Of a stretch of 64,000 nucleotides of DNA, positions 1 through 61,307 are shown piece by piece. The position numbers were made by a program, and so were the translations under genes. The notes below the pieces were generated by a model, which saw nothing but the letters and a program-made list of their open reading frames with translations, searched no databases and was not told where the DNA came from. Numbering within the stretch: the first letter of the stretch is position 1; each line of letters begins with the position of its first letter. Location of the stretch: the NCBI GenBank assembly GCA_963739615.1, contig CAVUBD010000001.1, positions 44,590 through 108,589 of the forward strand, in the 5' to 3' direction. The DNA is from an uncultured Actinomycetes bacterium (lineage in GTDB: Bacteria > Actinomycetota > Actinomycetes > Streptosporangiales > Streptosporangiaceae).

Positions 1-566
1 CCCGGGGAGGGTGCCCGCGACTGCGTACCGGCTGCAGAGGTACTCGAAGGCTTCCTCGGCCCCGCGCCTGCCCGCGAGCGCGCGGGCGAAGCCCAGCAGT
101 TCCTCCTGCTGGGCGGACCATTCCCGGGGGATCATCTGAACGAGCAGGTTCCTCGCGTACTCGCCCCACCGGTCCACCCTGGCTGCCAGGTCACGTGCTG
201 GGAGCAGGCCGGTAACTGGCTCTGCACCGTGCCCGGCTTCGCCGGCAGTGCTTACTTCTGGGCAGCGGGATGCCTCAGCCAGCAGGAATGCTCCGGTGAG
301 ACTCAGCGCGTCGCCAGCGTGCTCAGGCATCCCGAACGCCTCGATGCGGCGCCAGGTGCGTTCTTCTGCCGGGATTTCCGGTACCTTGCCCTGCTCCTGG
401 AGCCAGTTCTCGACGGAGCGCAGGTCGAAGGAGGGACTGGTGGCGGTGCCCCCCACGGGCTGGGGGAAGTCAGCGTAGCGGCGGCGCCAGTTGCTGACGG
501 CTGCCCTGCCAACGCCGCCGAGGCTGGCGATGCCGGACGCGGTGACGGTGGCGGGGCTGTCGCTCA
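1..566 (-). CDS. 5' part of a gene that runs off the window: N-terminal HTH domain protein, probably an N6-adenine DNA methyltransferase (RM/BREX-type)
   Basis: Absent from the ORF track because it has no stop inside the window. Reverse-strand ATG at 564-566 is preceded by GGAGG. The translation MSDSPATVTASGIASLGGVGRAAVSNWRRRYADFPQPVGGTATSPSFDLRSVENWLQEQGK... matches the HTH N-terminus I associate with actinomycete N-6 DNA methylases. The catalytic part lies outside the window. Confidence 0.55.
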
Positions 567-693
567 TGCTCGCCTCCTAATGACATGTTGCGGTGTGGCC
601 CGCCGTGTGAACTGAGGCCGGGGATCGGTTATGTGAATATAGGCCACGTCCGCCCGGATTCGCGAGGCTGCCCGCGGCGCGATCGCTGCCGCC

Positions 694-1983
<1,290 letters not shown>

Positions 1984-2159
1984 TCCCGACCTCCTGCGCC
2001 GTCCGCTCGACCCTGCGACATGTGAATGCTAGCAGTTCCCGAATTCTTGTTGACGGTATTCACAAAGTCTGGTCTTATTGTCATGTCCGAGATGGCTACG
2101 GAGCCCGGTCCCCGCGTCCCGCAGGGGCCTTGCGCTCCGAGGTGCGGCGGGAGCACGCG
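1984..2159. promoter_or_regulatory. Divergent promoter region between the kinase gene and the nuclease/helicase/PIWI operon
   Basis: Locally AT-richer stretch. TTGACG at 2050-2055; 7-bp inverted repeat TGTGAAT (2021-2027) / ATTCACA (2058-2064). No clean -10 at canonical spacing. Confidence 0.35.
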
Positions 2160-3950
2160 ATGACTGGATGGCCGGTCCCCGACGGGGCTGAGGGAGACCC
2201 GCGCCTGGTGAGGGTCTTCACCTCGGCGGTGCGGGAGGGTGAGCAGGAATGCCCGATGCACCGTGCGCTGAAAGCGCACCCGCGTATCAAGACTACGGTG
2301 GCGCCGGCGTTCAAGAGCCAGGACTTCGAGGATTTCCCCCTTGAGCCGGTGATGAGAGCGCTTGACCTCATCGAGGACGGCAAGGCCGGCGTGGCTGAGG
2401 CCCTTGATGGCCTGTCACGGGCGGCTTCCGAGGCCAGGCGGGGACGCGGGGAGAAGCGGTTGCACCCGGGGCTGGTCCAGTGGGCCGCGCAGGCCGTCAC
2501 GCACTACCTGGAAGCAGCGCTGCCGACCGTTCAGATGCCCGGCGTCGGGCAGCCGGCGCTCGTCCCGGTGCGGGACGAGTGGGTTCAGCAACTGAACCTA
2601 GGGCGACTCGATGAGTCCGGCGTGCGGATGTACGAGCTGTGCGCCTGGGGCCGCCGGTACCAGAGCCCGGACGGCCTGTTCCGGGAGCTGCGCCTGCCCC
2701 GGTTCGGGACGGTCGAGGGCGCGGAGCGCGAGCCAGGCGAGGTCGCCATGGCGGCCCGCGTCCTGGCGTTCGGTTCCCCGGCGCGGGTCGCCGAGAAGAA
2801 GGGAAACGGGGCCTACGCCTGGCCTACGATGCGGGGGCGTCCTTACCTGGTGCGGCAGGGGACCCTGCCGTCCTGGGTCCGCGTCGTGGAGGTCGGCTGC
2901 GGCGACGGCAGCGCCAGGGTGCTCTTCGAGGGCGACCCGGACAAGGCACAGCGCGAGTATGAGGAGGCCCGGGGCCGGCTCCGCGCCACCGTGGATTCCG
3001 CGGAGCGAAGGCCCGGTCGCAGCTGCGCCAGCTGCCGCCTTGCTCCCACCTGCCTGGACCTGCGCAAGGTCCCCGGGCTCCTCGGAATAGCTGACGCCAC
3101 ACGCCCTCGGCGCACCCTCTCCGTCACTGACCTGCGCCGCCACGAGAAGTGCCCGGCGCAGGAGCACCTAAGGCGCCTGCGCCTGCCCCGAAGGCTCGAC
3201 ATCGAGTACGGCAGCCGGGCCGTGCAGCGAGGGAAAGCGGTCCACAAGCTCCTGGAGCACCTGCACGCCCGCACGCCGCACCGGCGCTGCACCCTCGCGG
3301 ACGTCCCTGACCCCCGGGGATGGGGCGCCGGCGAGTGGCACCTGACCGGTCGTGAAGCGGAGCTCGGCGCCCAGATGATGGCCCGGCACGTCGCCGTCTG
3401 CCCCCTGAAGTACGCCGACCGCGACATGCCCCTGAGCACGGAACCTGTCCTGGCCTTCGACGACCCGGCATCTGACACCGTGGTGATCGCCGAGCCCGAC
3501 CTGCTGTACTGGGACGGCGGCGGCAGGGTGTGGCGGGAGACCAAGACCACCGGGTACATCGCGGACCGGTCAGGGAAGGACGTCCTGGAGGTATATCCCC
3601 AGGCGGCGCTCGCGCTGGTGCTGCTGGCTGAAGGTGTCCTCGGCGGTGACCCTGCCAGGTCGCGGGTGGAACTGGAGATCCTCCGGCCCTCCGGTCCTGA
3701 CCTGGAGCTGATCAGCGCCGGCGATCCCGGTCGCGTCGCGAAGGCCCGCGAGGTCATCGCGTCGCTCGCTGGTCCCTGGCACTCCGACCGCGAGTTCACG
3801 GCCAACCCGGGGAAAAAGCGGTGCGCGGACTGCGAAGTCGCCCAGTGGTGCCCGTCGGCCCTCCCCGCCCTGCCAGATGAGGGAGACGTGCGGCCCGGCG
3901 GGCAGAAGGACGCCCCGCCGGCTCCGTCCGCACAGTCGGCCGCCGCCTGA
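2160..3950 (+). CDS. Cas4/RecB-family PD-(D/E)xK nuclease with a 4-Cys Fe-S signature, fused to a ~300-aa N-terminal region of unknown function
   Basis: ATG at 2160 is preceded by GGGAG; the track ORF start at 1848 would overlap the kinase gene. C-terminal half carries EKCPAQ (first Cys), AEPDLLYW (D), WRETKTT (ExK), YPQAALAL (QxxxY-like) and CADCEVAQWC (CxxCx5C) at about 3822-3851. Confidence 0.75.
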   Translation: MTGWPVPDGAEGDPRLVRVFTSAVREGEQECPMHRALKAHPRIKTTVAPAFKSQDFEDFPLEPVMRALDLIEDGKAGVAEALDGLSRAASEARRGRGEKRLHPGLVQWAAQAVTHYLEAALPTVQMPGVGQPALVPVRDEWVQQLNLGRLDESGVRMYELCAWGRRYQSPDGLFRELRLPRFGTVEGAEREPGEVAMAARVLAFGSPARVAEKKGNGAYAWPTMRGRPYLVRQGTLPSWVRVVEVGCGDGSARVLFEGDPDKAQREYEEARGRLRATVDSAERRPGRSCASCRLAPTCLDLRKVPGLLGIADATRPRRTLSVTDLRRHEKCPAQEHLRRLRLPRRLDIEYGSRAVQRGKAVHKLLEHLHARTPHRRCTLADVPDPRGWGAGEWHLTGREAELGAQMMARHVAVCPLKYADRDMPLSTEPVLAFDDPASDTVVIAEPDLLYWDGGGRVWRETKTTGYIADRSGKDVLEVYPQAALALVLLAEGVLGGDPARSRVELEILRPSGPDLELISAGDPGRVAKAREVIASLAGPWHSDREFTANPGKKRCADCEVAQWCPSALPALPDEGDVRPGGQKDAPPAPSAQSAAA

Positions 3951-3967
3951 CCAGAGACGAGGAACTC

Positions 3968-5134
3968 ATGATGCCTGAACAGCCGCTCCCCCTCGTCCCG
4001 CACAACGGGACGGTCCTCCTGCGCACTGTGGCCACCGCGGTCCTTGACCTGAGCGACGTGCCGAACCCGGGCACGTTCACGCTGCCCTACCCGGCCGAGG
4101 CCCAGCGCGCCCTGGACCGTACTGTTCTCGCCTGCCTGCTGCGCGGGGCCGAGCCGCCGCGCGGCGTCCCGGACCTGCTGGTCTGGTGCCGGGAGATCCC
4201 GGTCGTTGACTGGCCGCTGGACCTGCCGGAGGACCTGGTGGCCCCGAGTGAGTACCTGATCGACCCGCACGGCCTGGAGCCGACGCAGCTGTGCTACGAG
4301 TGGGCGATCAGCCACCGTGACTCGGCCGCCGAGCAGGTCGAGCGCGAGATGGTCTTCACGGCCATCGAGCAGTGCCGCGCAGCGCGCAGCCCGGAGGCGT
4401 ACGCGGCCTTCCGCCGGCTGCTGATCGAGCACCCGGTGCTCACCCGCGAGCAAGCCGCAGCGACCGCGCTCGAGCCGGCCTTCCTCCCGGTCGCAGCGCT
4501 GCTGCCGCACGTCTACCTGCCCGCCCCGGCCGGCTGGGCAAGCGGCGGCGTGCTCTACTCGTGCGGCCGGTGCAGGACCCTGTTGGTTCCCACCCGGGAC
4601 GACGGCTGGTGGTGCGAGAACGACCGCTGCCGCCGCACCGGCCCCGCGCCGGTCGGCCAGACCTACCACGAGGACGACGGCGGCGGGGTCCTCACGCTGA
4701 CCCGTCCCCTGCGCTTGTTCGTCACCGCTCCCGGAAAGGCGGAACTGCGGCTGGAGAAGAAGCTCCGCGGCCTGCGGCTCCGGCCCCAGATGTGGCCCGA
4801 GTACGACGCGTACGACCTGCTCGTCCCGCTGCCCGGCGGGCAGGAGTGGGCTGTCGACGTGAAGGACTGGGCTAGTCCCGCCCTGCTCGGCCGCCAGATC
4901 AGGCCGCTGCCCAAGGCCCCACGGCACGACAAGGCCTTCATCGTCGTACCCGACCACCGCCTGAGCCGCAGGCCCGGCTACCTGGACATCGTGATCAGGA
5001 ACATGCGCAAGGCCGCCGCGTCAAAGGTGGCGGTCATGAGCGAACGGCAGTTCACCGCGGCGGTCCGCGATGCCCTCGCGGAGCACGGCGGCTACGGCGC
5101 GGACCACGAGAGCGCGGAGGATGATGATGCGTGA
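3968..5134 (+). CDS. Restriction-endonuclease-fold protein with an internal zinc ribbon (pPIWI-RE-associated REase type)
   Basis: 388 aa; GAGGA lies before the ATG. CGRC...CENDRC zinc ribbon at about 4561-4632. PD-(D/E)xK-like AYDLLVP...EWAVDVKDW at about 4810-4866. Sits between a nuclease and a helicase in the same operon. Confidence 0.6.
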   Translation: MMPEQPLPLVPHNGTVLLRTVATAVLDLSDVPNPGTFTLPYPAEAQRALDRTVLACLLRGAEPPRGVPDLLVWCREIPVVDWPLDLPEDLVAPSEYLIDPHGLEPTQLCYEWAISHRDSAAEQVEREMVFTAIEQCRAARSPEAYAAFRRLLIEHPVLTREQAAATALEPAFLPVAALLPHVYLPAPAGWASGGVLYSCGRCRTLLVPTRDDGWWCENDRCRRTGPAPVGQTYHEDDGGGVLTLTRPLRLFVTAPGKAELRLEKKLRGLRLRPQMWPEYDAYDLLVPLPGGQEWAVDVKDWASPALLGRQIRPLPKAPRHDKAFIVVPDHRLSRRPGYLDIVIRNMRKAAASKVAVMSERQFTAAVRDALAEHGGYGADHESAEDDDA

Positions 5135-8100
5135 CCGCAACACCTGGCAGGCAGGCCTCGCGGACGAGCTGGAGCCGCACATGGAAGGCCCCAAACCCCG
5201 GCCTGCGGCGTACCGCCTGTGCGAGGCCGAGCTGGGCCTCTACCTGATGGAGCAGCTCATCCCGGGGCATCCCGCCGAGGCGGGATGGACGCTGCTGGGA
5301 GGCTACCCCTTCGCCCCCGCCGTTGGTGCCCTCACCACCCTGGGGCAGGAGCGGATGCTGCAGATCGCCAGGCACCTGCTGTGGCCGCTGCGGCGCCCGC
5401 GGAGCTGGACCCTCGCGCTGGACCGCTACGCCGGGGTCGACGAGAGGCTGCGGGGGTACGTGCTGGACGGCCCCGGCGACACGGCGCGGCGCCGCCGCCC
5501 GGCCATCGCCGCGCACCGCTGGGACGCCTATGCCGCCGCGCTGGCCACGCCGCCGCCCTTCGTCATGCAGCCGACCCCTGTCGCGGCCCCGGGGCGGTAC
5601 AGGTTCCGGGAACGGCCAGCACGCAACGGCGCCGAGCTGCTGTGGACCGGCGTCGAGCTTCCCGATGCCCTGCCCGCCCTGCGGGGTGCCGAGCACGAGC
5701 TCGGCACCCCGCTGGCCGGAGGCGGGAAGCCGCTGCGCGTCCGCTGGGACGAACTGGCCGATACCGCGGCCTGGATGGACGCGGAGCTCGCCGCCCGCAA
5801 CGAGCCGCCGGGACGGTGGGCCTACCGGTTCAGCCGCGTGGGGCTGTCGGTCCGCGACGCCGAAAGGTCAGACTTCACCGGGTCCGGCGTCCTGGCGATC
5901 GACCAGATGCTGCACATCGTCGGCATGGTAGGCGCAGGCAAGAGCACGCTCCGTGACGTGCTCGCGGTCTGGGCCGCCCAGCATGGGCTCCGTTCCACCC
6001 TCGTCGTCTCCGACGTCGCCGAGGCGCTCCAGCTGGTCGCGCTGTTCACCTCGCTCGGCTTCACCGCCGCCCCCGTGCTCGGGGCCTCCACCCGTGAACG
6101 GCACGTCCAGCGGATGCACCGGCGGCTGGCCGCCCGCGGGAACGCCTCGCTGCTCGCCCACGACTCCCCCGCCTTCGACTACCTCAGCACCGCGTGCCCG
6201 CTCGACGCGCTGCGCGGCGTGGAGGCCCCGGACCCTCTCCGCTTCTCCGACGCCCCGTGCGCGAACCTGTACCCGGCCCGCCGCAAGGACCAGGAGCGCC
6301 GGCTGTCCGCGCTCGCCCCGCCACCCGATGACGAGGAAGAAGAAGACGACAAGCCCCGCGGCAAGCGGCACAGCTGCCCGCTGTGGCACCAGTGCCCGCG
6401 CCACCACGCAGCACGGGAGCTGGTCGCGGCCGACATCTGGGTCGCCACCCCGGCGAGCCTCATCCATACCGCCGTGCCGTCCCAGCAGAATCCCGAGCGG
6501 CTGCGCTACCTTGAGCTGGCCTGCCGCCGCAGTGACCTGATCGTGGTAGACGAGGCCAACCGGGTCCAGATGCAGCTGGACATCATGTTCGCCCCCGCCA
6601 CCACCCTGGCCGGGAAGGCCCCCAACTCGTGGCTCGACGAAGTCCACGCCCGCAAGATCGAGGAACTCTCGCGCAGCGGGCGGACCCAGCTCTCTGACGG
6701 CGACGTGCGGCGGTGGACCGCCGCAGTCAACTCAGTCACCAGCGCCACAGACCGCATCTACGAGATCCTGCTCATGCAGGCCGACGTCCGCCGCTGGGTA
6801 GAGGCTGACTACTTCAGCGCCTGGACGCTCCAGCAGAAGCTCATCGATGAGTGGTTCGGCCCGGAGGAAAACCCCGGGCAGCCGGACGCGGCCGACGTCA
6901 TCGACCGGCCAGGCCCCGAATGGGACGACCCCCGGCACGACGAGCCGGCAGGCCAGGGCACCAGCGACGACACCGAACGGTCGCCAGGCCCCCGCAAGGA
7001 CACCGGGCAGAGGGCACTGGTAATCAAGATCCTCGACGACTTCCGCGATGACCCTCTCGGGGACACCGACAAGCACAGCGACGAGGTCAAAGCCCTCATC
7101 CAGCTCACCCGCCACCTGCTGCACGCCACCGGAACCAGGAACGTCCGCCAGCTCGTCCGCGAGCAGCTGCTGGCCCTGTTCGGGCAGCAGGATCCGACGC
7201 TCGCCGCGCATGCCACCAAGAAGGGCGGCGAGGACGCCAAGCGGAAGCTCGGGGAGCAGTGCCGGCAGTTCGAGTTCACGCTCCTGCTATCCGTCTTGCA
7301 CACGCGCCTGGACATGATGACCGAGATGTGGCCGCGGGTGGAGGCGGCGCTGAACCTCGTCGGGACGTCTAACGCGCTGTCCCGGCGGCCGCCAGAGGAC
7401 TACCGGCCCCTCGTCCCGGAATCGCCTATGGGCAACATCCTCGGGTTCCAGTTCCAGCCCGACTCCGATGCCGGCGAGCCGCAAAGCGGGGAACTGCGGT
7501 TCTTCCGGTGCGCCGGGTCAGGGCGTGAGCTGCTCCTCGGGCTGCCGCGCCTGACCGCCGCCGACGGCCTGCCCGCCCCGCACGTCGTGCTGATGTCAGG
7601 CACCAGCTGGGCGGGAACCTCCACCCGCTACCACGTGCTCACCGAGGTCGGCGCGGTCCTCAAGCCCCCGCAGAAACAACTCGACGCCATCGACCGGACG
7701 ACCTTCACCACCTGCTTCCTCAAGGACGCCGCCGGGAAGCCGCTGAAGCTCTCCGGCGCCAAGCCCCACCTGCGCCCGCTCGTGCTGGAGCAGATGCTCA
7801 GCCAGCTCGCCCGGCCGCGCCCCGACGGATCGGCCAGCCCGATGCAGGCAGAGCTCGCCGCCATCGACGACGACAACCGCCGGCGGCTGCTCCTCCTCAC
7901 CGGCAGCTACGACGAGGCCCGCAGGACGGCGGACTACCTGGAGACCATCGAGCGCTGGGCCGGACGGGTCTGCCGGCTCGTCTCCGACGACGCGGAGCAA
8001 GACCACCTGTGGCGCCAGGCCGCCCAACCGCCTTCCGCCCCCCGGGGCGGACCCGGGACGCTGCGGCGCGGGGACGTCGCGACCTTCGCCGAGACCGGCG

Positions 8101-8768
8101 CGGAAGTCCTCGTCGCCCCGCTCCTGGCCATCGAGCGGGGCCACAACATCCTCAATGACGAGGGGACGGCGGCGATCGGGTCAGTGTTCTTCCTCGCCCG
8201 CCCCCACCCCCGGCCGGACGACATCGGCCTGGCCATCCAGGCCGTGAACGACTGGGCCGCGCGGATGCTCAGGGACGGCAGCTTCGAGGAACTGGTTGAC
8301 TCCGCAGACAGCCTGGACGCCGCCGGCAAGGAGTTCCGCCACCAGGCCCGCGCGAAGTGGCGCTGGCTGCTGAGCCGGCAGCTGGCCTGGTCCCGGCTCG
8401 GCCCGGAGGAGAAGGCCTCGTTCACCTGGGACCAGCTCGTGGTCATCTGGCAGGTCATCGGCCGGCTCGTGCGCGGCGGCGTGCCCGCCCGCGTCGTCTT
8501 CGTGGACGCGCCCTTCGCGGAGCGGCAGGCCCGGGGGCTCACCGGCGACACGGCCGAGACCAGCCTCCTCGCCAGCATGCTGCACGTACTGGCCCCGTAC
8601 TGCGCCGACCAGGCCGGCACCGAACCGCCCGCCAGCGGGAACCCGGTCCCCGCCCTGGACCGCGTGCTCGTCACGACCCTCTACAAACCGCTCTACATGG
8701 CCCTGTCCCGCCTCTTCCCCGCCTCTGAAGCGGACCCCGCCGCGATCACGCACCTGGAGACCTCGTGA
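5121..8768 (+). CDS. Large P-loop helicase, DinG/XPD-like (pPIWI-RE-associated helicase type)
   Basis: Start taken at the MMM cluster (5121-5129), overlapping the stop of the previous gene. Walker A GMVGAGKST at 5922-5948; VVDEAN box at 6543-6560. Four Cys lie between them (TACP, APCA, SCPL, QCPR; 6195-6395), resembling the DinG/XPD Fe-S insertion. Confidence 0.7.
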   Translation: MMMRDRNTWQAGLADELEPHMEGPKPRPAAYRLCEAELGLYLMEQLIPGHPAEAGWTLLGGYPFAPAVGALTTLGQERMLQIARHLLWPLRRPRSWTLALDRYAGVDERLRGYVLDGPGDTARRRRPAIAAHRWDAYAAALATPPPFVMQPTPVAAPGRYRFRERPARNGAELLWTGVELPDALPALRGAEHELGTPLAGGGKPLRVRWDELADTAAWMDAELAARNEPPGRWAYRFSRVGLSVRDAERSDFTGSGVLAIDQMLHIVGMVGAGKSTLRDVLAVWAAQHGLRSTLVVSDVAEALQLVALFTSLGFTAAPVLGASTRERHVQRMHRRLAARGNASLLAHDSPAFDYLSTACPLDALRGVEAPDPLRFSDAPCANLYPARRKDQERRLSALAPPPDDEEEEDDKPRGKRHSCPLWHQCPRHHAARELVAADIWVATPASLIHTAVPSQQNPERLRYLELACRRSDLIVVDEANRVQMQLDIMFAPATTLAGKAPNSWLDEVHARKIEELSRSGRTQLSDGDVRRWTAAVNSVTSATDRIYEILLMQADVRRWVEADYFSAWTLQQKLIDEWFGPEENPGQPDAADVIDRPGPEWDDPRHDEPAGQGTSDDTERSPGPRKDTGQRALVIKILDDFRDDPLGDTDKHSDEVKALIQLTRHLLHATGTRNVRQLVREQLLALFGQQDPTLAAHATKKGGEDAKRKLGEQCRQFEFTLLLSVLHTRLDMMTEMWPRVEAALNLVGTSNALSRRPPEDYRPLVPESPMGNILGFQFQPDSDAGEPQSGELRFFRCAGSGRELLLGLPRLTAADGLPAPHVVLMSGTSWAGTSTRYHVLTEVGAVLKPPQKQLDAIDRTTFTTCFLKDAAGKPLKLSGAKPHLRPLVLEQMLSQLARPRPDGSASPMQAELAAIDDDNRRRLLLLTGSYDEARRTADYLETIERWAGRVCRLVSDDAEQDHLWRQAAQPPSAPRGGPGTLRRGDVATFAETGAEVLVAPLLAIERGHNILNDEGTAAIGSVFFLARPHPRPDDIGLAIQAVNDWAARMLRDGSFEELVDSADSLDAAGKEFRHQARAKWRWLLSRQLAWSRLGPEEKASFTWDQLVVIWQVIGRLVRGGVPARVVFVDAPFAERQARGLTGDTAETSLLASMLHVLAPYCADQAGTEPPASGNPVPALDRVLVTTLYKPLYMALSRLFPASEADPAAITHLETS

Positions 8769-11539
8769 CCACCTTCGAGTCCATCCGGCTCACCGCCTAC
8801 CAGCCCGACCGCGACGCGGGCGCATTCACCCAGGGCTGGTACGGGCTGGCGTTCCCGGCTCGCTGGCGCAAGCTCTTCCTGGAGCACTACAGGCTCGGCA
8901 AGCGCGACCCCGACCGCTATCAGTACGTCCCGATCGGACGGCTGAACGAGGTGATCAGGGCAGTCGCCCCGGACCTGGTGTCCGTGGCGCGCGGGGCGAC
9001 CGAGAACGACGCCAGCCCCTGGATCTACGCGCGCGACCGCTTCCCGGTCCCGCTGCTGCGCCAGATGATCCTCGCGTGGATCTACGACATGCACGGCGAG
9101 GAGACCGACGCCGATAAGAAAGCCGAGATCCTGACTGCCACCACCGGGCTCGTGTCGGAACTCGACTTCAGCGAGCTCAGCTGGGATCCCGAGCCCGTCG
9201 ACCTCCTCGCCCGCAGCCTGAACGCCGACGGCACGGCACAACCCGACGGGCGCCTGTACCAGCTGCTCCCGGACGAGCTGGCAAAACGCGCACTCGACCT
9301 GGGATCCTACGCCTTGGAGGAGGCGCGGCTGAACTTCCGCATCGCGCCCGCTACGCGCGGCGCAGAGCTCATCTCCTGGCCCCCGCGCGACCATCACGAC
9401 GAGGATGGCAGCTGGAAGTTCTCCCTGGTCATCTCCCTGACCGTGCACACCGTCCCGTTCACGGGCGACTTCCGGCTCCACGTCCGGACCGGCATCCGGC
9501 GCTGGTGCACCAACGGGCCGGTCAAGGTGGGCTACCGGCATAGCGTGTCGACGTACCTGCTGACCGAGACGCCGTGGCTGCAGGGCGGCCCCGGCACAGG
9601 GCGCTTCGCGGTCAGCCAGCTGTGCAACGGCGAGGACCCGGACACCTACGAGTGGACTCGCGGCGGCCCCGAAGGCATGCTCAGGCAGCTCATGTTCGCC
9701 CAGCAGTTCCCCGAGCCAGCAGTCCTCCAGGTAGCCCCGGCGACCTGGATCGACGGCGCGGGCGGCGTCACGGCCGGCGTCGTCTACAGCACGACCATGG
9801 GCACCCACGGCGTCGGAGCCGGGCTGATGCCGCGCGACCGCGCACCGCTATCGGAGTGGATCGCCCCGGCCTTCGAGCCGTTTCTGCGCCGCGTCCCGGA
9901 CCACCACCCCAGCAAGTACCCGGTCGCGCCCCGCAACCTCCCCAGGAAGCCGGCCGGCAAGACAGCCGAGGAAAAAGACGAGAAGAAAGCCCAGATCAGG
10001 CGGCAGCAGCAGCAGGCTCGCCGGGAAGGCCTGGGCCGCATCCTGGAGGGCGAGCCGCTGCAAGCCGAGGTGCTGTGGCAGGACACCCCCACGCGCGACG
10101 GCCTGATCGCCCAGCTGGCCGAGGCGCTCGGCCTAGACGACCCTGACAGCAGCGACCCCGGCCTGCTCACCTGGCGGACTAGCGAGCTGATGGTCCGCCT
10201 GCGCCTTGAGGAAGCCGGCGACCTCGCCGCTCCTCTTGTCTTCCCCGGGCCGAAGCCGAGGAAGAAGCATCTCCACCGGGCGATCGGCCAGCGCCGCCGC
10301 CAGGTATCTGACCACTTCTCCGCCGGCAGCCCGGCGGACCTGACGCTCATCGAGATCGATAACCCGGGCGCCTTCGGCCCGTTCACCGACCCTAAGTTCG
10401 CCCTGCGGCTCGGCTGCGCCGACGCAGGGCGCCTGACCCAGTTCATCAACACGCCAAGCGGCAAGAAGAAGACCGCCACCCGCACCAGCATCGAGCACCG
10501 CTCCCTGCAGTCCTGGATCGATGGGTTCCGGCAGCTCGGCCTGAGCACCATCCCCGAGCACAGCCTCGACGGCCTTCCCCCCGACCTGACCGCGGTTGCC
10601 GTGTGGCTGGTGAAACGCCGCGCCGACGGCCCCACCGGCCAGCGTCGCATGACCCCGGTGGCCGTGCGCACCGGCCCGTCCGGCGCCATCACCGGCTGGG
10701 ACCCGGACACGGGCGAGTGGATCCCGTACCGGGCCATGCTCCTGCGCCTGACAAGGCACGCCGACATCCCGGGCGAGGAAGAAGCAGAGGCGGCCGAGAA
10801 CGAAGAGCCGGGAAAGAGCCCGCGCGCCTGGTCCCCGGACTTTGAGGAGCAGCGCGCGATAACCGCCCAGTTCATCAAGCCCCTGCTCTACAGCCTCCGC
10901 CGCGAGCAAGTACTGCTCATGACTCACGCCCAGAACAGCCGCGGCCTATGGCCATTCCTGGCGAACGGGAACATGCTTCGCGACAGCCTTCAGTTCGGCG
11001 CCAGCCCGGCACAGGGGATTGGCCTGTACGGCGACGGCCTGCGCCACGTACGGGTCCGCGACCACTCCATGAACGAAACGCCCCAGTGGTACGGATACAC
11101 CCCCGCCGCCACGAAGCCCGGGGAAGATGATGACGATTCTACGGACCGCTACGGCATCGCAGCCGGCCTCTGGGGCAGCCCTGACGGCGGCAGCGACCAG
11201 CGGACGTTCCTGAGCACGGCGGCCAAGGCGAGCACCGCGAAGAACGCGGCCGTCGACGCATCCAAGTTCGCCACCAGGGAGAACCAGCAGGGCGAGACCG
11301 TCATCGACACCGGCAAGAACGCCTCAAACCCCGGGATCCTCGAACTGGCCGTTTCCGCCTGCAACCCGGCACCCGGGACCAAGGCCACCACGGCATTCGA
11401 CCCCGAACTGTGGGCCGCCCTCGTGCATCAGCTCCGCCGGGCGCCCGACTACCGCGACACGCTCGCCCTACCCCTTCAGATGCACCTGGCCAAGCTAACC
11501 GAGGAGTATGTCCTGCCTCATGACCCGGACGCTGATTAG
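8765..11539 (+). CDS. pPIWI-RE-like protein (prokaryotic PIWI-RE clade Argonaute relative)
   Basis: 924 aa. GTG start overlaps the helicase stop (GTGA). Size, last position in a REase/helicase operon and the C-terminal LALPLQMHLAKLTEEY motif fit my recollection of PIWI-RE proteins. Not confirmed by any search. Confidence 0.55.
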   Translation: MTTFESIRLTAYQPDRDAGAFTQGWYGLAFPARWRKLFLEHYRLGKRDPDRYQYVPIGRLNEVIRAVAPDLVSVARGATENDASPWIYARDRFPVPLLRQMILAWIYDMHGEETDADKKAEILTATTGLVSELDFSELSWDPEPVDLLARSLNADGTAQPDGRLYQLLPDELAKRALDLGSYALEEARLNFRIAPATRGAELISWPPRDHHDEDGSWKFSLVISLTVHTVPFTGDFRLHVRTGIRRWCTNGPVKVGYRHSVSTYLLTETPWLQGGPGTGRFAVSQLCNGEDPDTYEWTRGGPEGMLRQLMFAQQFPEPAVLQVAPATWIDGAGGVTAGVVYSTTMGTHGVGAGLMPRDRAPLSEWIAPAFEPFLRRVPDHHPSKYPVAPRNLPRKPAGKTAEEKDEKKAQIRRQQQQARREGLGRILEGEPLQAEVLWQDTPTRDGLIAQLAEALGLDDPDSSDPGLLTWRTSELMVRLRLEEAGDLAAPLVFPGPKPRKKHLHRAIGQRRRQVSDHFSAGSPADLTLIEIDNPGAFGPFTDPKFALRLGCADAGRLTQFINTPSGKKKTATRTSIEHRSLQSWIDGFRQLGLSTIPEHSLDGLPPDLTAVAVWLVKRRADGPTGQRRMTPVAVRTGPSGAITGWDPDTGEWIPYRAMLLRLTRHADIPGEEEAEAAENEEPGKSPRAWSPDFEEQRAITAQFIKPLLYSLRREQVLLMTHAQNSRGLWPFLANGNMLRDSLQFGASPAQGIGLYGDGLRHVRVRDHSMNETPQWYGYTPAATKPGEDDDDSTDRYGIAAGLWGSPDGGSDQRTFLSTAAKASTAKNAAVDASKFATRENQQGETVIDTGKNASNPGILELAVSACNPAPGTKATTAFDPELWAALVHQLRRAPDYRDTLALPLQMHLAKLTEEYVLPHDPDAD

Positions 11540-11557
11540 GGACCGCTTCGGTCTGAG

Positions 11558-12549
11558 GCGCGTTATGTGGGTTGATATCCCGGTGGCGCCTTGATCGTGA
11601 GGTGGCCTCTGCGAGAGACAAGAGATAGTCGAAGTCCCTTGTCCCGCAGAGGCCACCACCATGCTGCCAACCGAGGACCTGTTCGTCTACGTCTACGTGC
11701 TGATCCACGACCTGATCACCGCCGGGGCCATCGCCATCCCGGCCCGGCCGGGTCCCGAACCGGCCTGCAGCGACGCCGAGCTGCTCACCGTCGCCATGGT
11801 GCGCCACCTGCTGGGCCGGCGCAGCGAGGCCGGATTCCTGGCCGAGGTGGCCCGCGACTGGGGCCATCTGTTCCCGCGGCTGCCGCACCAAAGCGAGGCG
11901 AACCGGCGGATCCGCTGGCTGCGGGGCGCCTTCGAGCAGTTCCGGGCGACGCTGGCGGCCCGGCTGCCCGAAGACGACTGCCAGCAGGTCGACACCTCCG
12001 CGCTGCCGGTCAAGCACGCCTCCCGGGTCCGCGGCCCGGATCAGTGGACCGGCCCGGGCAACGACCTGGCCGCCCGGTTCGGCCGCGACGCCGCGCACGC
12101 CGAATGGTTCTACGGCTTCCGGCTGGCCATCAAGACGGACCTGGGCAGCCGGATCGTGCGGGCCTGGAGCATCGTGCCCGCCGCGGTCAACGAGCGCGAG
12201 GTCGCCGAAGACCTGCTCCGGGCCGGGCCGCCGCCCCGCGACCTGCTGTGCGACAAGGGCTTCAACGGCAAGGCATTCGCCGCCGGACAGGCCGCCCGCG
12301 GGACCGCGGTGCTCGTCCCGCCCGCCAAGGACCAGCGTGCCCGCATGCCCGCCATCCTGCAGAAGGTCATCGCCCAGTGGCGCAACCGCATCGAGGCCAG
12401 CTTCGGCGAGATCACCGACCTGATGGGGCTGGCCCGGCACGGTGCTCATACCTTCTGGGGCCTTCTGACCCGCACCGCTGCCACCATCGCGGCACACACG
12501 CTGCTGCGCACCTGCCTCGCCGTAGGCTAGATCAACCCACATAACGCGC
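11558..12549 (+). mobile_element. IS982-family insertion sequence, apparently intact
   Basis: 19-bp perfect terminal inverted repeats: GCGCGTTATGTGGGTTGAT (11558-11576) and its complement (12531-12549). Flanked by a CTGAG direct repeat (11553-11557 and 12550-12554). One DDE transposase gene inside. Confidence 0.85.
11661..12530 (+). CDS. IS982-family DDE transposase
   Basis: 289 aa. VDTSALPV, LLCDKGF and WRNRIEASFGEI blocks are typical of IS982 transposases. Bounded by the IRs above. Confidence 0.9.
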   Translation: MLPTEDLFVYVYVLIHDLITAGAIAIPARPGPEPACSDAELLTVAMVRHLLGRRSEAGFLAEVARDWGHLFPRLPHQSEANRRIRWLRGAFEQFRATLAARLPEDDCQQVDTSALPVKHASRVRGPDQWTGPGNDLAARFGRDAAHAEWFYGFRLAIKTDLGSRIVRAWSIVPAAVNEREVAEDLLRAGPPPRDLLCDKGFNGKAFAAGQAARGTAVLVPPAKDQRARMPAILQKVIAQWRNRIEASFGEITDLMGLARHGAHTFWGLLTRTAATIAAHTLLRTCLAVG

Positions 12550-12775
12550 CTGAGGCGTGACAAGTGACGGTAGGCGGCCATCAAGGGCACGCGACCCGTG
12601 AGCCATCAACGCATACAGCCAGGCCGCCCGCACCGCATCGCGGTTCCGGCACGAAGGGGTCCGATCTGCCCCCCGCACCCGGAGGCTGGGCGCTCGCCGT
12701 CCAGCTAGGTTACGGCACCAGCCGTAACCCCGCCACGGTGCCAGGCCCCGCTGCCGTAACAGGTAGATTCGTTTC

Positions 12776-15061: not shown

Positions 15062-16609
15062 GTGATCGGGAAGGTGTGCCCGCGCGGGCAGGACGTGGCC
15101 GGGCTCATCCGCTACCTGTACGGCCCCGGATGCCGGGAAGAACACACCGACCCGCACATCGTCGCCGGCTACCGGGATCCCGCCGATCTGGAACCCCCGC
15201 TGCGCGCCAATGGGAGCCGGGACTTCCGCCGCCTGACCGGCCTGCTCCGGCTGCCGCACGACGTGCTCGGCAAGTGGGGGTACGCCAAGCCGGTCTGGCA
15301 CTGCTCGATGCGCGCCGCCCCCGAGGACCGGCTGCTCTCCGACGCCGAATGGGCCGGTATCGCGCGGGACGTGATGCACCGCACGGGGTTGTGCCCGCGC
15401 GGGGAGGAAGACGACGCGGTGCGGTGGATCGCGATCCGGCACGGCCCGGATCACATCCACCTGGTGGCGATGCTGGCCCGGCAGGACCGGACCCGGCCCC
15501 GGATCGTGAACGAGCGGTACCGGGTCCGCGATGCGTGCATCGCCGCCGAGCGGCAGTACGGGCTGCGGTCCACCACCCCGGCCGACCGCACCGCGGCCCG
15601 CCGCCCTACTCGGGCCGAGACCGGCAAGGCCGACCGCCAGGGCCGCGGGGAGCCGGCCAGGCTCACCCTGCGCCGCCACGTCTCCACCGCCGCCGCGTCA
15701 GCGGCCAGCGCGGAGGAGTTCTTCGCCCGGCTGGACCAGGCCGGGGTGCTGGTCCGCCTCCGGTACAGCACCAGGAACCCCTGCCAGGTCACCGGATACG
15801 CCGCCGCCCTGCCCGATGACACCACTAAAGCGGGGGAACCGGTCTGGTACGGAGGCGGCAAGCTCGCCGCCGACTTGTCGTGGCCCCGGCTGTGCCAGCG
15901 GTGGACCCGCCCGGCCCGGCCGGACTCACCGCTGTCGGCCGCCGAAGCCGACGCCCTGTGGGAGTACGTCGCCCGCACCGCCGCTGACGCGACCGCCCGG
16001 ATCAGGTTCTACACCGCGACCGGCAACCCGGCCGCCGCCGCCGACGCCGCGTACGCCGCCTCCGATGCGCTGCACACAGCCGCCGCCGCGCTCGGCAGCC
16101 GCACCCTGCGGCAGGCTGCCGACGCATTCGACCGCGCCGCCCGCCAGCCCTACGGCCGCATACCCAGCCCGACCCCGGCCGGGAACCAGCTCCGCCACGC
16201 CGCCCGGCTGATTTCCGCCTACGCCTACCTCACCGGAGATCCCACCCTCACCCCGGTCGTGCTGCTGGTACGCCTCGCCGCCCTGGCCGAGGCCGTCGCC
16301 GAACTCCGCGACTCCCAGCAGCGCGCCGCCCAGGCCGCCGCCGCGCTCCGCGCCGCCCGGCACATCCGCACCGCCGCCAGGCCCGCGCCGCCCACTCGGC
16401 CGCCAGGCAGGCCCGCGACGGCTACGACTCCGTCCGCGTCGAAATCCGCCCAGCCCCGGCCGGACACCGCCGCTGGCCTGGCCCAGCTCAGCTTCCCCGC
16501 TGCGCCCCGTCCTCGCCCGCCCGCACCAGAGCATCCCGGACCCGGCTCCGGCGATCCACCCCCGCTACGCAGGCCACCACCACCTCGGCCACGCGGCCCC
16601 ACCCGCTAA
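15062..16609 (+). CDS. Relaxase / mobilization nuclease (MobA/VirD2 family) with a Pro/Ala-rich tail
   Basis: N-terminal VAGLIRYLYGPG, WHCSMRAAPEDR and the histidine triad region IRHGPDHIHLV. Lies directly downstream of mobC. Confidence 0.85.
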   Translation: MIGKVCPRGQDVAGLIRYLYGPGCREEHTDPHIVAGYRDPADLEPPLRANGSRDFRRLTGLLRLPHDVLGKWGYAKPVWHCSMRAAPEDRLLSDAEWAGIARDVMHRTGLCPRGEEDDAVRWIAIRHGPDHIHLVAMLARQDRTRPRIVNERYRVRDACIAAERQYGLRSTTPADRTAARRPTRAETGKADRQGRGEPARLTLRRHVSTAAASAASAEEFFARLDQAGVLVRLRYSTRNPCQVTGYAAALPDDTTKAGEPVWYGGGKLAADLSWPRLCQRWTRPARPDSPLSAAEADALWEYVARTAADATARIRFYTATGNPAAAADAAYAASDALHTAAAALGSRTLRQAADAFDRAARQPYGRIPSPTPAGNQLRHAARLISAYAYLTGDPTLTPVVLLVRLAALAEAVAELRDSQQRAAQAAAALRAARHIRTAARPAPPTRPPGRPATATTPSASKSAQPRPDTAAGLAQLSFPAAPRPRPPAPEHPGPGSGDPPPLRRPPPPRPRGPTR

Positions 16610-18472: not shown

Positions 18473-18538
18473 TAGCCATCGCCGCCAGCTAGCCGCACCC
18501 TTTCGGTAACAGCACCGTGAAACGCCGCAGGAGCAGCG

Positions 18539-19304
18539 ATGGACACCTTCTACGCCTACCACGCCGACATCCTCGACCCGGACCAGCAGCCGCGCGTCAT
18601 CGCGCTGCTGCGCGAGCACGGCCTGGTGACCTTCACCGGGATCACCGACCGCACCACGCTGGCCAACGCGGCACGCGCGCTGATGAGCATCCGGCCGCAC
18701 CGTGACGCCGGGCCGGACGGGGTGACCGTGATTACCGACACCCGGACCAGGGACCCCGGCTACGCCGCGTTCACCGACGCTGAGCTGATCCCGCATACCG
18801 ACGGGACCAGCCTGCCCGACCCGCCCGGCCTGCTCCTGCTGGCCTGCCAACAGCCCGCCAGCCAGGGTGGGGCCACGCTGCTCGCCGACGCCGCCCGGAT
18901 CACCGCGACCCTCGCCGGGCAGCACCCCGCCGCCCTGCAAGCGCTATCCGCGCCACGAGCCGCCCACTTCGGCACCGCAGGCGGATACCTCGGCCCCGTC
19001 TGCGACCGCCGGCCCCGGCCGGGCACGCATCCGGCTCCGCCTCGATGACCTGGCCATGTTCTCCGCCGACGCCACCCCGGTCATCCCGTTGCTCCGTGCC
19101 GCGATCACCCAGCACCTGCATGCTGTCCAGCTCCGCGCCGGGCAGGGCCTGCTGGTCAGCAACACCCGCTGGCTGCACGGCCGCGACCGCTACACCGGCC
19201 CACGCGTCATGCTCCGCATCCTGGGCGATCCCCTCCCCGGCACTGGTATCCAGCCCGGATTTTCCGTGCCGACGCCCGGTACGCAGACGGCACAAGCAGC
19301 GTGA
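18539..19304 (+). pseudogene. TauD/TfdA-family Fe(II)/2-oxoglutarate dioxygenase, split by a frameshift near 19008-19024
   Basis: ORF 18539-19048 carries IPHTDG (HxD). ORF 18867-19304 carries RIRLRLDD...NTRWLHGR (distal His). The frames join in a run cgccggccccggccggg. This could be a sequencing indel. Confidence 0.7.
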
Positions 19305-24521: not shown

Positions 24522-24604
24522 CATGCCTGCATCGCAGTTCCCCGTGCGGGCGCGCTACGGTGGGACAAATCCGATGTCGTTGAGCGCCCGGCCGGAGGAT
24601 AGCG

Positions 24605-25189
24605 GTGGCAACCCCGAGTTCCTGGTTCGAGGGATTCCCCGACCAGATCACAGCCGAGGACTACGCTGCGCTGCCGGAGGAGTTCTGCAAGACCATCGAA
24701 GTGATCGACGGCCACGTGGTCAAGTGCGAGAGCCCGTCGCGGGTACACAACCGGGTCGCGCTGAACCTGGCGATCGCATTCAAGGCGGGGCGCAAGCCTG
24801 AGCCGTGCCTCATGGTTGACACGGACATCGACGTCCGGATCACGGACGTGCCGCTGAACATCCGGCAACCGGATGTCACCGTCTCCCGCTGCATACCAGA
24901 CAGCGAACGGCTCTACAGCCGTGACGTGGTGCTCGTGGCTGAAGTGGTCTCGCCGGGAAGCTCGTTGAAGACGGACACCGTCGACAAGAAGGCCGTCTAC
25001 GCCGATGCCGGCATCTCGACCTACCTGATCGTCTTCTTGAACGAGGGTCAGGACGGGGTCGAGAAGATCGAGGAGTACTGGCTTGAGCCTACGGGCGTCT
25101 ACCGTCTCGTGCAGATCCACACCCGCCGGCTCACGATGGAAAACCCGATCCCGCTCGACGTGCGGTTCGGTGAACTGAACCTGGCGTAG
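24605..25189 (+). CDS. Uma2-family (DUF820) putative endonuclease
   Basis: 194 aa. YAALPEE...EVIDG, QPDVTV and VAEVVSPGS...D..KK..YA.AGI match the Uma2 pattern. Confidence 0.85.
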   Translation: MATPSSWFEGFPDQITAEDYAALPEEFCKTIEVIDGHVVKCESPSRVHNRVALNLAIAFKAGRKPEPCLMVDTDIDVRITDVPLNIRQPDVTVSRCIPDSERLYSRDVVLVAEVVSPGSSLKTDTVDKKAVYADAGISTYLIVFLNEGQDGVEKIEEYWLEPTGVYRLVQIHTRRLTMENPIPLDVRFGELNLA

Positions 25190-55782: not shown

Positions 55783-55904
55783 GGCCGCAGCGCGCGCAGC
55801 GGACCAACGTCCCAGCGCACCGGGACTTTCGGCCGGGCAGCGCGGGTAGCAGCATTACAGATGATGGACGAGGTGTTTACCACCCGCGACCTGAGGAGCC
55901 CGAC

Positions 55905-61307
<5,403 letters not shown>

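What the first reader, a model, noticed from the sequence alone, without database searches (positions are those of the whole stretch)
2160..11539. Four-gene pPIWI-RE-type operon (nuclease / REase / DinG-like helicase / PIWI-RE)
Four genes are packed with 17-bp, overlapping and GTGA-overlap junctions, which suggests a single transcription/translation unit.
- Gene 2 is a Zn-ribbon REase-fold protein (AVDVKD).
- Gene 3 is a ~1200-aa P-loop helicase with GAGKST and VVDEAN boxes and a 4-Cys insertion.
- Gene 4 is a ~920-aa protein ending in LPLQMHLAKLTEEY.

This matches the computationally defined three-gene PIWI-RE island (Burroughs, Iyer and Aravind 2013: PIWI-RE + DinG-type helicase + REase). 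As far as I know that island has no established mechanism or phenotype. The neighbourhood is typical of a defence island: a methylase-like gene, a kinase, an IS element and a mobilization module.
Basis: partly seen in the sequence, partly recalled or inferred. Interest (0 to 1): 0.85.

Follow-up and report, generated by a model that had tools for sequence, protein, structure and literature searches.

The report
PIWI-RE Argonaute-like defence operon, actinobacterial form
This is an intact copy of a known but functionally untested bacterial defence operon built around a distant Argonaute relative (PIWI-RE), and comparison with 80 related loci shows it travels with a DNA methylase and a protein kinase that nobody had tied to it.

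Summary
The observation and the interpretation both hold. Window 2160-11539 (+) carries four tightly packed genes: a Cas4-like PD-(D/E)XK nuclease, a Zn-ribbon REase, a DinG/XPD-like Fe-S helicase and a PIWI-RE protein. All four hit the dedicated Pfam and PADLOC models (E 1e-34 to 2e-262). AlphaFold models match Argonautes (gene 4) and DinG/XPD/CasDinG/DdmD (gene 3). The gene order is kept in 74 of 80 related loci.

It is therefore a new member of a known, computationally defined kind that PADLOC already models, including the fourth gene.

New points:
- **Inactive slicer site:** the PIWI-RE protein has no acidic residue at the strand-4 catalytic position, so it is probably a guide-directed binder, not a slicer.
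- **Closest analogue:** the best-characterised analogue is DdmDE (inactive Argonaute plus DinG-like helicase-nuclease).
- **Larger island:** a divergent Ser/Thr kinase (694-1983) and an N6-adenine methylase (567 to beyond the window edge) are conserved partners.
- **Linked accessories:** across loci, the methylase occurs only where the REase active site is intact. Loci with a decayed REase instead carry a STAND NTPase plus kinase.
- **Host:** probably Streptosporangiaceae, not Streptomyces.

The mechanism remains inferred.

The parts
1..567 (-). First 189 codons of an N6-adenine DNA methyltransferase. It has an HTH-like N-terminus, and the gene runs off the left edge of the window.
   Evidence: Translation is open from the ATG at 567. 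tblastn with the L033 methylase matches residues 1-177 (39% identity) at 567-25. L033 hits Pfam N6_Mtase at 4e-25 and PADLOC MTase_I at 4e-101. In the 94%-identical relative L083, a 717-aa N6_Mtase gene is called at the same position.
694..1983 (-). Hanks-type Ser/Thr protein kinase (429 aa) with a TPR-like C-terminal region. It is transcribed divergently from gene 1 and in the same direction as the methylase.
   Evidence: Pkinase 4.9e-48 and TPR_12 2e-4. HRD and DFG motifs are present. A kinase gene starts 26-270 nt upstream of gene 1, on the opposite strand, in 50 of 74 related loci. It scores below the curated cut-offs for PglW, MAD6 and PknB.
1984..2159 (.). Divergent intergenic region between the kinase and gene 1; presumed to hold promoters in both directions.
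   Evidence: GC is 0.63 against about 0.70 for the flanks. GGAG lies at 2150-2153, 6 nt before ATG 2160. The simple scan found no sigma-70 consensus, so the promoters are not located.
2160..3950 (+). Gene 1: a 596-aa Cas4/AddB-like PD-(D/E)XK nuclease with two Cys...CX2CX5C 'iron-staple' sets.
   Evidence: PDDEXK_1 6.5e-19 and PADLOC PprPDDEXK 1.7e-118. D447, E460 and K462 are at least 95% conserved in 75 homologues. So are Cys31+289/292/298 and Cys331+555/558/564.
3968..5134 (+). Gene 2: a 388-aa protein with a Y domain, a Zn ribbon and an REase-fold nuclease. The catalytic motif is intact.
   Evidence: pPIWI_RE_Y 2.6e-54, pPIWI_RE_REase 2e-34 and PprRE 2.9e-97. D283...D297-V-K299 is intact here and in all class I-III loci, and lost in 38 others.
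5121..8768 (+). Gene 3: a 1215-aa protein with a Z domain and a DinG/XPD-type SF2 helicase carrying a 4-Cys (Fe-S) insertion and a helical arch.
   Evidence: pPIWI_RE_Z 3.9e-44 and PprDinG 2e-262. GxGKST, DE, four Cys and QxxGRxxR are invariant in 30 homologues. The model (pLDDT 77.5) best matches DinG 6fws (3.9e-10), then XPD, CasDinG and DdmD 9ixm.
8765..11539 (+). Gene 4: a 924-aa PIWI-RE protein (X, MID and PIWI/RNase H domains), probably not a slicer.
   Evidence: Pfam and PADLOC hits. The Argonaute fold is supported. MID pocket residues are invariant. There is no acidic residue in 716-726, VLLMTHAQNSR, at the end of strand 4.
11553..12554 (.). A 1002-bp IS element that marks the right-hand boundary. 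It is not part of the system.
   Evidence: 24-nt terminal inverted repeats, 96% complementary. A DDE_Tnp_1 transposase lies at 11661-12530. Similarity to relative L008 stops at 11533.

Best explanation
It is an intact PIWI-RE (PADLOC 'Ppr', Argonaute type III) nucleic-acid defence island in its actinobacterial four-gene form, with a divergently transcribed kinase-methylase pair attached.

Proposed mechanism (inferred except where marked):
1. The PIWI-RE protein has an Argonaute fold and a conserved MID pocket (shown by model and alignment). It binds a short guide by its 5' end and pairs with invader nucleic acid, most likely as an RNA-DNA heteroduplex.
2. It lacks the strand-4 catalytic Asp (shown by alignment and predicted secondary structure), so it acts as a sensor rather than a slicer.
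3. Target binding recruits or releases the DinG/XPD-like Fe-S helicase, which translocates 5'-3' along the displaced or target DNA strand.
4. Two PD-(D/E)XK-fold nucleases, both with intact active sites here, degrade the DNA. The Cas4-like one may also produce guides.
5. The N6-adenine methylase marks host DNA so that the REase spares it. The kinase tunes or triggers the system.

Functionally this is the DdmDE logic (inactive Argonaute hands DNA to a DinG-like helicase-nuclease), split over separate proteins and combined with restriction-modification-style self-marking.
For: - Identity: Pfam and PADLOC hits for all four proteins.
- Folds: the gene 4 model gives Argonaute/PIWI as all top 50 PDB matches. 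The gene 3 model gives DinG, XPD, CasDinG and DdmD as the top 17.
- Operon structure: 17-nt gap, 14-nt overlap, 4-nt overlap, and no + strand terminator-like site inside.
- Gene order: kept in 74 of 80 loci across many actinomycete genera.
- Guide binding: MID residues E530, D542, K544, R548 and R589-Q590 are invariant.
- Non-slicer: residues 716-726 contain no D or E. In 131 family representatives and 83 loci, acidic residues at the strand-1-end column 621 and at the strand-4-end column 721 are not positively associated; only 2 sequences in each set have both.
- Nucleases: gene 1 D447/E460/K462 are at least 95% conserved. The gene 2 D...DxK motif is intact here.
- Methylase link: the methylase is present in 21 of 32 loci with an intact REase and 0 of 38 with a decayed one, Fisher p = 3e-10 uncorrected for phylogeny.
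- Precedents: the DdmDE mechanism (10.1101/2024.05.10.593530); PsPIWI-RE acts only on DNA/RNA heteroduplexes (PMC10991935).
Against: - No experiment exists for any whole PIWI-RE operon in the library searched.
- The catalytic residues were mapped from predicted secondary structure, spacing and column statistics, not from a structural superposition. D621 and H888 could be part of an unusual active site.
- The one studied family member is an active nuclease.
- Guide type, guide source and the protein contacts between the four products are unknown.
- The methylase-REase association is phylogenetically non-independent, and 11 loci have an intact REase with no adjacent methylase.
- The role of the kinase is pure inference.
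Confidence: 0.6

Rival explanations
1. R-loop-triggered restriction, as first proposed by Burroughs et al. 2013. PIWI-RE is not programmed by a stored guide. It recognises RNA-DNA hybrids (R-loops) that form on heavily transcribed invading DNA. DinG then remodels the R-loop and the REase cuts the exposed duplex.
For: The DinG-like fold and Fe-S Cys set are confirmed. PsPIWI-RE works only on heteroduplexes. The model is stated in PMC3702460.
Against: The fully conserved MID 5'-end pocket argues for an anchored guide end. The original argument leaned on the absence of a methylase, which does not hold for this locus. The REase active site has decayed in about half of the related systems, so it cannot be the universal effector.
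Confidence: 0.2
2. PIWI-RE is itself the effector: an RNA-guided DNA slicer like PsPIWI-RE. The helicase and nucleases only produce guides or clear up fragments.
For: PsPIWI-RE cleaves, and D525A or D610A abolish cleavage. The window protein keeps D621 after strand 1 and the near-invariant H888.
Against: There is no D or E at or near the end of strand 4 (H721, N724). K617 and R618 sit at the end of strand 1. Acidic residues at columns 621 and 721 are not positively associated in 214 sequences (only 2 per set have both). Burroughs et al. also report that catalytic residues survive only in a subset of the family.
Confidence: 0.08
3. Not immunity but chromosome maintenance. The module helps replication, repair or decatenation, for example by removing R-loops, as suggested by the ciprofloxacin phenotype of the P. 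stutzeri mutant.
For: Ciprofloxacin sensitivity of the piwi-re deletion (PMC10991935; PMC11555693). DinG's known role at R-loops.
Against: The distribution is patchy (about 1100 clusters at 50% identity). Flanks vary between loci. An IS lies 14 nt after the stop codon, and synteny breaks at the gene end. The operon is linked with a DNA methylase, a STAND NTPase, and in L041 a second copy. Copies occur on plasmids. All of this is typical of defence cargo.
Confidence: 0.07
4. Abortive infection. Target recognition unleashes non-specific DNA degradation by the two nucleases, under kinase control, killing the infected cell rather than selectively clearing the invader.
For: Many inactive-Argonaute systems work this way (reviewed in PMC11333966 and PMC13618286). 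The sister class IV loci pair the operon with a STAND NTPase and a kinase.
Against: This locus belongs to the class with a methylase and no STAND NTPase, which fits selective restriction better. DdmDE, the closest analogue in parts, clears plasmids without killing cells.
Confidence: 0.05

Closest known systems
pPIWI-RE three-gene island (Burroughs, Iyer, Aravind 2013; PMC3702460); PADLOC 'Ppr' / Argonaute type III
   Same: Same three core proteins, with the same domains (Y-ZnR-REase; Z-DinG; X-MID-PIWI), the same strict order and the same overlapping termini. PADLOC also models the fourth protein, PprPDDEXK.
   Different: There is an extra leading Cas4-like nuclease, found in 74 of 80 actinomycete loci but absent from the Chloroflexales locus (L079) and the Nostoc plasmid locus (L081). 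A conserved divergent kinase and an N6-adenine methylase are attached, whereas the 2013 description stressed that no methylase is associated.
PsPIWI-RE of Pseudomonas stutzeri (PMC10991935)
   Same: Same protein family. The conserved R/E residues fit by spacing: R763/R765 and E860 are about 79 residues apart, like R639 and E718.
   Different: PsPIWI-RE has catalytic D525 and D610 and cleaves its targets. The window protein has no acidic residue at the strand-4 position. I did not have the PsPIWI-RE sequence, so there is no direct alignment.
DdmDE plasmid-defence system (Vibrio cholerae, Lactobacillus casei)
   Same: A catalytically inactive Argonaute, a DinG/XPD-like SF2 helicase and a PD-(D/E)xK nuclease. 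DdmD (9ixm_A) is among the top structural matches of gene 3.
   Different: In DdmD the helicase and nuclease are fused, and its insertion domain has lost the Fe-S cluster. Here they are separate proteins, the four Cys are invariant, and there are two nucleases. DdmE is a long-C pAgo, not a PIWI-RE protein. No PADLOC hit other than Ppr models was found.
CasDinG of type IV CRISPR-Cas
   Same: A DinG-family helicase recruited by a guide-bearing, non-cutting recognition complex. It is a structural match to gene 3 (7xf0, 8e2w).
   Different: Recognition there is by a crRNA-Cascade-like complex, not a PIWI protein. No CRISPR array or Rfam hit is present in the window.
Pgl / BREX type 2 (PglW kinase + PglX methylase) and MADS (MAD2 methylase + MAD6 kinase)
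   Same: An N6-adenine methylase is paired with a Ser/Thr kinase in an actinomycete defence locus.
   Different: The kinase and methylase score far below the curated cut-offs: PglW 76 against 990 bits, MAD6 161 against 460, MAD2 26 against 720. No PglY/PglZ or other MADS genes are present.

Membership tests
pPIWI-RE protein family | Domain set: N-terminal X module, MID_pPIWI_RE and RNaseH_pPIWI_RE. | tested here: met
   PF13111 328 bits (cut-off 30.5), PF18157 90 bits (26.6) and PF13032 224 bits (25), each covering nearly the whole profile. PprPIWI 7.7e-220.
pPIWI-RE protein family | Argonaute-like MID-PIWI fold. | tested here: met
   AlphaFold2 model with pLDDT 85.6 and pTM 0.89. The top 50 Foldseek PDB matches are all Argonaute/PIWI, e.g. 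4kxt at 2.9e-10 and KmAgo with TM 0.51.
pPIWI-RE protein family | Absolutely conserved Arg and Glu in the PIWI beta-sheet extension. | tested here: inconclusive
   R726, R760, E771, E860 and R891 are invariant or nearly so. By spacing to PsPIWI-RE R639/E718, the pair is most likely R763/R765 and E860. The name-giving columns could not be fixed without the reference alignment.
pPIWI-RE protein family | An extra alpha-helix after the first three strands of the RNase H fold, preceded by a conserved Trp. | tested here: met
   The model has strands 609-618, 628-636 and 641-646, then helix 655-664. W652 is invariant in 83 of 83 loci.
pPIWI-RE three-gene island | Strict order REase, then DinG helicase, then PIWI-RE, with overlapping or closely spaced termini. 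| tested here: met
   The order holds in the window and in 76 of 80 loci, 74 of them with gene 1 in front. Overlaps are 14 and 4 nt.
DinG/XPD clade of SF2 helicases (gene 3) | Cys-rich Fe-S insertion after strand 2, a helical arch insertion, and SF2 motifs. | tested here: met
   Invariant C359, C380, C419 and C425, plus GxGKST, DE and QxxGRxxR. A long helical block lies at model residues 488-727. DinG, XPD and CasDinG are the best structural matches. No Pfam DEAD_2 or Helicase_C_2 hit and no PDB hit by sequence.
Cas4/AddB-type PD-(D/E)XK nucleases (gene 1) | D...ExK active site, plus one upstream Cys and a CX2CX5C motif that staple the domain through an Fe-S cluster. | tested here: met
   PF12705 at 69 bits (cut-off 22), full profile length. 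D447, E460, K462 and C331+C555/558/564 are at least 95% conserved. Metal content cannot be tested here.
Slicing (long-A-type) Argonautes | A complete DEDX catalytic tetrad. | tested here: not met
   No acidic residue in 716-726 at the end of strand 4. K617 and R618 lie at the end of strand 1. The mapping comes from predicted secondary structure, not from a superposition.
DdmDE | A DdmE-type pAgo together with a helicase-nuclease fusion, DdmD. | tested here: not met
   The helicase and nucleases are separate genes. Gene 4 hits only Ppr/PIWI-RE models. DdmD is a structural match only (TM 0.26-0.27). It may work like DdmDE, but it is not a member.
Pgl/BREX type 2 and MADS | PglW or MAD6 kinase and PglX or MAD2 methylase at equivalog level, with the remaining system genes present. 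| tested here: not met
   All scores are far below the curated cut-offs. No PglY/PglZ or other MADS genes appear in the flanks.

The most novel reading that the evidence does not exclude
The actinobacterial PIWI-RE operon may not be a stand-alone unit. It may be the effector arm of composite systems that come in interchangeable sensing or licensing flavours. This locus would represent a hybrid of restriction-modification and Argonaute immunity. An N6-adenine methylase marks self DNA for an active REase. A non-slicing PIWI-RE with a DinG helicase gives sequence- or hybrid-directed targeting. A Ser/Thr kinase switches the whole system. Sister loci would have swapped methylation-based control for a STAND NTPase, letting the REase active site decay.
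Probability: 0.3. Interest if true: 0.75.

Novelty: new member of a known kind. Interest (0 to 1): 0.5.

Why it matters
PIWI-RE is the one major branch of prokaryotic Argonaute-like systems with no whole-system mechanism or defence phenotype, thirteen years after it was predicted. This locus is complete, with every catalytic motif of the helicase and both nucleases intact, so it is a usable test case.

The comparison across 80 loci gives concrete, falsifiable leads:
- The PIWI-RE protein is probably a non-cutting sensor, as in DdmDE.
- The Cas4-like nuclease, not the name-giving REase, is the universally conserved nuclease.
- Methylase presence tracks REase integrity.
- A kinase accompanies two thirds of the systems.

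If confirmed, this would show how guide-directed recognition and methylation-based self-marking are combined in one system. On its own, though, the locus is one ordinary example among hundreds.

Tried and rejected
- **PDB sequence searches.** The PIWI-RE profile, gene 3 and gene 1 gave nothing usable, so no solved relative exists by sequence.
- **Promoters and terminators.** The sigma-70 scan found no promoter, and only chance-level terminators, all on the opposite strand.
- **RNA genes.** Rfam and tRNA scans of the whole window were empty. There is no associated RNA gene, CRISPR array or tRNA integration site.
- **NCBIfam.** It has no model for any of the four proteins.
- **Source contig.** An exact-sequence look-up of gene 4 found nothing.
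- **PsPIWI-RE sequence.** I could not get it for a direct alignment of D525/D610; the supplement lists accession numbers only.
- **First mapping of the catalytic residues.** I first mapped them to K617 and N724 from the co-varying E617/D724 in three loci. I then found that column 721 carries D/E in 26% of the family and that D621-G resembles the RNase H 'DG' motif. I therefore claim only that the strand-4 Asp is missing.
- **Gene 1 as a tandem duplication.** hhalign between its two halves gave only a weak match over the Cys-staple segment (probability 35%, E 4e-4). This is a lead, not a result.
- **The IS element.** It has no near match in the plasmid collection.
- **The large + strand genes at 50.5-61.3 kb.** I suspected a second defence system, but they are lipid-metabolism genes.
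Full report
**Observation.** Window 2160-11539 holds four same-strand ORFs.
- Gene 1 is best started at ATG 2160, giving 596 aa. The mechanical ORF begins at GTG 1848, but third-position GC is 0.58 for 1848-2159 and 0.86 after 2160. A GGAG sits 6 nt upstream. Conservation among 75 homologues begins just after this point. An independent gene call on a 94%-identical metagenomic relative also gives 596 aa.
- Gene 2 is 3968-5134 (388 aa).
- Gene 3 is most likely 5121-8768 (1215 aa, as called in the relative), preceded by GGAGG.
- Gene 4 is 8765-11539 (924 aa).
- The junctions are a 17-nt gap, a 14-nt overlap and a GTGA overlap. No + strand terminator-like site lies inside.

**Identity.**
- Pfam gives PDDEXK_1 for gene 1, pPIWI_RE_Y plus pPIWI_RE_REase for gene 2, pPIWI_RE_Z for gene 3, and pPIWI_RE_X plus MID_pPIWI_RE plus RNaseH_pPIWI_RE for gene 4. 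All score far above the gathering cut-offs.
- PADLOC-DB has a dedicated model for each of the four proteins: PprPDDEXK 1.7e-118, PprRE 2.9e-97, PprDinG 2e-262 and PprPIWI 7.7e-220. These systems are what PADLOC calls Argonaute type III (PMC11333966).
- The AlphaFold2 model of gene 4 (pLDDT 85.6, pTM 0.89) finds only Argonaute and PIWI proteins among its 50 best PDB matches.
- The model of gene 3 (pLDDT 77.5) finds E. coli DinG, XPD, CasDinG and DdmD. Its Walker A, DE box, QxxGRxxR motif and four Cys are invariant in 30 homologues.
- No PDB entry is related by sequence to the gene 1, gene 3 or gene 4 proteins, the ones searched.

**Conservation.**
- A scan of one genome per species returned 80 loci, almost all from Actinomycetota. 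The order gene 1, 2, 3, 4 is kept in 74 of them. Most exceptions are cut by contig ends. The Chloroflexales locus (L079) and a Nostoc plasmid (L081) have the classical three genes.
- The PIWI-RE family has about 1100 clusters at 50% identity. The helicase has more than 686 close relatives, often mis-named 'signal recognition particle'.
- The closest locus, a Streptosporangiaceae MAG (L008), is 95.8% identical over window 1-11533. Similarity stops at the end of gene 4, where the window has a 1002-bp IS with 24-nt inverted repeats.

**Is the PIWI domain a nuclease?**
- In the model, the RNase H strands are 609-618, 628-636, 641-646, 716-721 and 859-865.
- The stretch at and after strand 4, VLLMTHAQNSR (716-726), has no acidic residue. 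The end of strand 1 reads VKRRADG.
- Across 83 loci and 131 family representatives, column 721 is H, N, D or E, and column 724 is almost always N. Column 621 is D in under a third of sequences. Acidic residues at 621 and 721 are not positively associated; only 2 sequences in each set carry both.
- In PsPIWI-RE both D525 and D610 are needed for cleavage (PMC10991935). Burroughs et al. noted that catalytic residues survive only in a subset of the family.
- I therefore infer that this protein binds but does not slice. This rests on predicted secondary structure and spacing, not on a superposition.
- The MID pocket residues are invariant, which fits anchoring of a guide 5' end.

**The nucleases.**
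- Gene 1 has D447, E460 and K462 and two Cys...CX2CX5C sets (C31+289/292/298 and C331+555/558/564). All are at least 95% conserved. The second set is the Cas4/AddB-type Fe-S staple (established knowledge of that family). The first set suggests a degenerate duplicate domain, but support is weak.
- Gene 2 keeps D283...D297-V-K299. That motif is intact in only 32 of the 70 related loci that could be scored. The Cas4-like nuclease is therefore the universally conserved nuclease of these systems.

**A larger island.**
- A Ser/Thr kinase gene starts 26-270 nt upstream of gene 1, on the other strand, in 50 of 74 loci. In the window it is 694-1983.
- Behind it, an N6-adenine methylase starts at 567 and runs off the window. 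The relative L083 shows the full 717-aa gene.
- The 75 loci, counting the window, fall mainly into four classes; four more are unscorable or incomplete:

| Class | Accessory genes | Loci | REase motif |
|---|---|---|---|
| I | methylase + kinase | 12, including this window | intact |
| II | methylase only | 9 | intact |
| III | none | 11 | intact |
| IV | NB-ARC/TPR STAND NTPase + kinase | 36-40 | decayed (36 scored; 4 unscorable) |

- A methylase is present in 21 of 32 loci with an intact REase and 0 of 38 with a decayed one (p = 3e-10). A STAND NTPase is present in 36 of 38 loci with a decayed REase and 0 of 32 with an intact one (p = 6e-18). Neither test is corrected for shared ancestry.
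- The kinase and methylase do not reach the curated cut-offs for PglW, MAD6 or MAD2.
- I found no paper in the held library linking PIWI-RE with a methylase or kinase. The 2013 paper argued from the absence of a methylase.

**Mechanism.** The best-supported reading is a DdmDE-like relay. In DdmDE, an inactive Argonaute with a DNA guide binds plasmid DNA and loads a DinG-like helicase-nuclease, which then degrades the plasmid (10.1101/2024.05.10.593530; PMC13618286). Here the same three activities are present as separate proteins, and the Fe-S Cys are retained. In this class there is also a methylase that could protect host DNA from the REase. PsPIWI-RE's restriction to DNA/RNA heteroduplexes and the R-loop idea of Burroughs et al. 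suggest that recognition involves a hybrid. Every step beyond fold, motif and gene linkage is inference. The rival explanations are an R-loop sensor without a stored guide, a slicing PIWI-RE, a chromosome-maintenance role and abortive infection; they are weighed in the rival-explanations section.

**Verdict.** The finding is real and correctly interpreted. It is a new member of a known, computationally defined kind that is still experimentally open. The conserved kinase-methylase pair and the class structure are the only parts that may be new. The rest of the window is ordinary: IS and Tn3 remnants, HTH regulators and lipid metabolism.

Noticed in passing
window 1-1983 (- strand); loci L002-L009, L028, L083: An N6-adenine methylase and a Ser/Thr kinase, co-directional with each other and divergent from gene 1, are conserved with the operon in 12 loci, counting the window. 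The methylase gene is cut by the left edge of the window.
   Followed up: yes
loci L021-L080 (class IV), e.g. L026 184-2856 and 2978-3721: In 36-40 related loci, an NB-ARC/TPR STAND NTPase of about 900 aa lies convergent with a shorter kinase upstream of the operon. In exactly these loci the REase D...DxK motif of gene 2 has decayed, for example to QVHDR.
   Followed up: partly
L040, L046, L054 (Streptomyces), PIWI-RE columns 614, 617 and 724: Three loci carry co-varying H614, E617 and D724 in place of W, K/R and N. This may be a sub-clade with a different, perhaps active, PIWI site.
   Followed up: no
L012 6837-12682 (uncultured Actinomycetota MAG): A minimal variant: a methylase, then an ORF matching only the N-terminal, non-nuclease half of gene 1 (residues 4-293), then PIWI-RE. 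There is no REase or helicase. This hints that the gene 1 N-terminal domain partners directly with PIWI-RE.
   Followed up: partly
L041 3456-22813 (Streptomyces sp. NPDC018045): Two complete four-gene PIWI-RE systems sit tail to tail, about 1.9 kb apart. They are only 33-43% identical to each other's counterparts as judged through the window proteins.
   Followed up: partly
window 2160-3380 (gene 1 residues 1-306): The N-terminal half of gene 1 has its own conserved Cys31...C289-X2-C292-X5-C298 set. It aligns weakly with the Fe-S staple segment of the C-terminal nuclease half (hhalign probability 35%, E 4e-4). It may be a degenerate duplicated domain.
   Followed up: partly
window 11553-12554: A 1002-bp IS (DDE_Tnp_1 transposase at 11661-12530; 24-nt inverted repeats, 96% complementary) is inserted 14 nt after the PIWI-RE stop codon. 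Synteny with the closest relative ends here. It has no near match among PLSDB plasmids.
   Followed up: partly
homologues of gene 3: Many NCBI records name the DinG-like helicase 'signal recognition particle'. This looks like a propagated mis-annotation.
   Followed up: no
L082 (Streptomyces sp. BB1-1-1 linear plasmid, 451 kb) and L081 (Nostoc plasmid): Distant PIWI-RE triads occur on plasmids. In Nostoc, the REase gene is annotated as a MerR-family regulator, which fits the HTH fusions noted in 2013. In the Streptomyces plasmid, two extra genes follow PIWI-RE, one annotated as a restriction endonuclease.
   Followed up: no
window 12.6-25.2 kb and 39.2-40.1 kb: This is a degraded mobile region. 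It holds a weak relaxase-like ORF (15062-16609, below the Pfam cut-off), three HTH_31 proteins, a truncated TauD fragment (18521-19048), a Uma2-family endonuclease (24584-25189) and a Tn3 transposase fragment (39242-40117).
   Followed up: no
window 50544-61307 (+): Four large genes that looked like a possible second system are lipid metabolism: WS/DGAT, a HAD-acyltransferase, a GPAT-like acyltransferase and an 1887-aa multidomain acyl-CoA carboxylase.
   Followed up: yes
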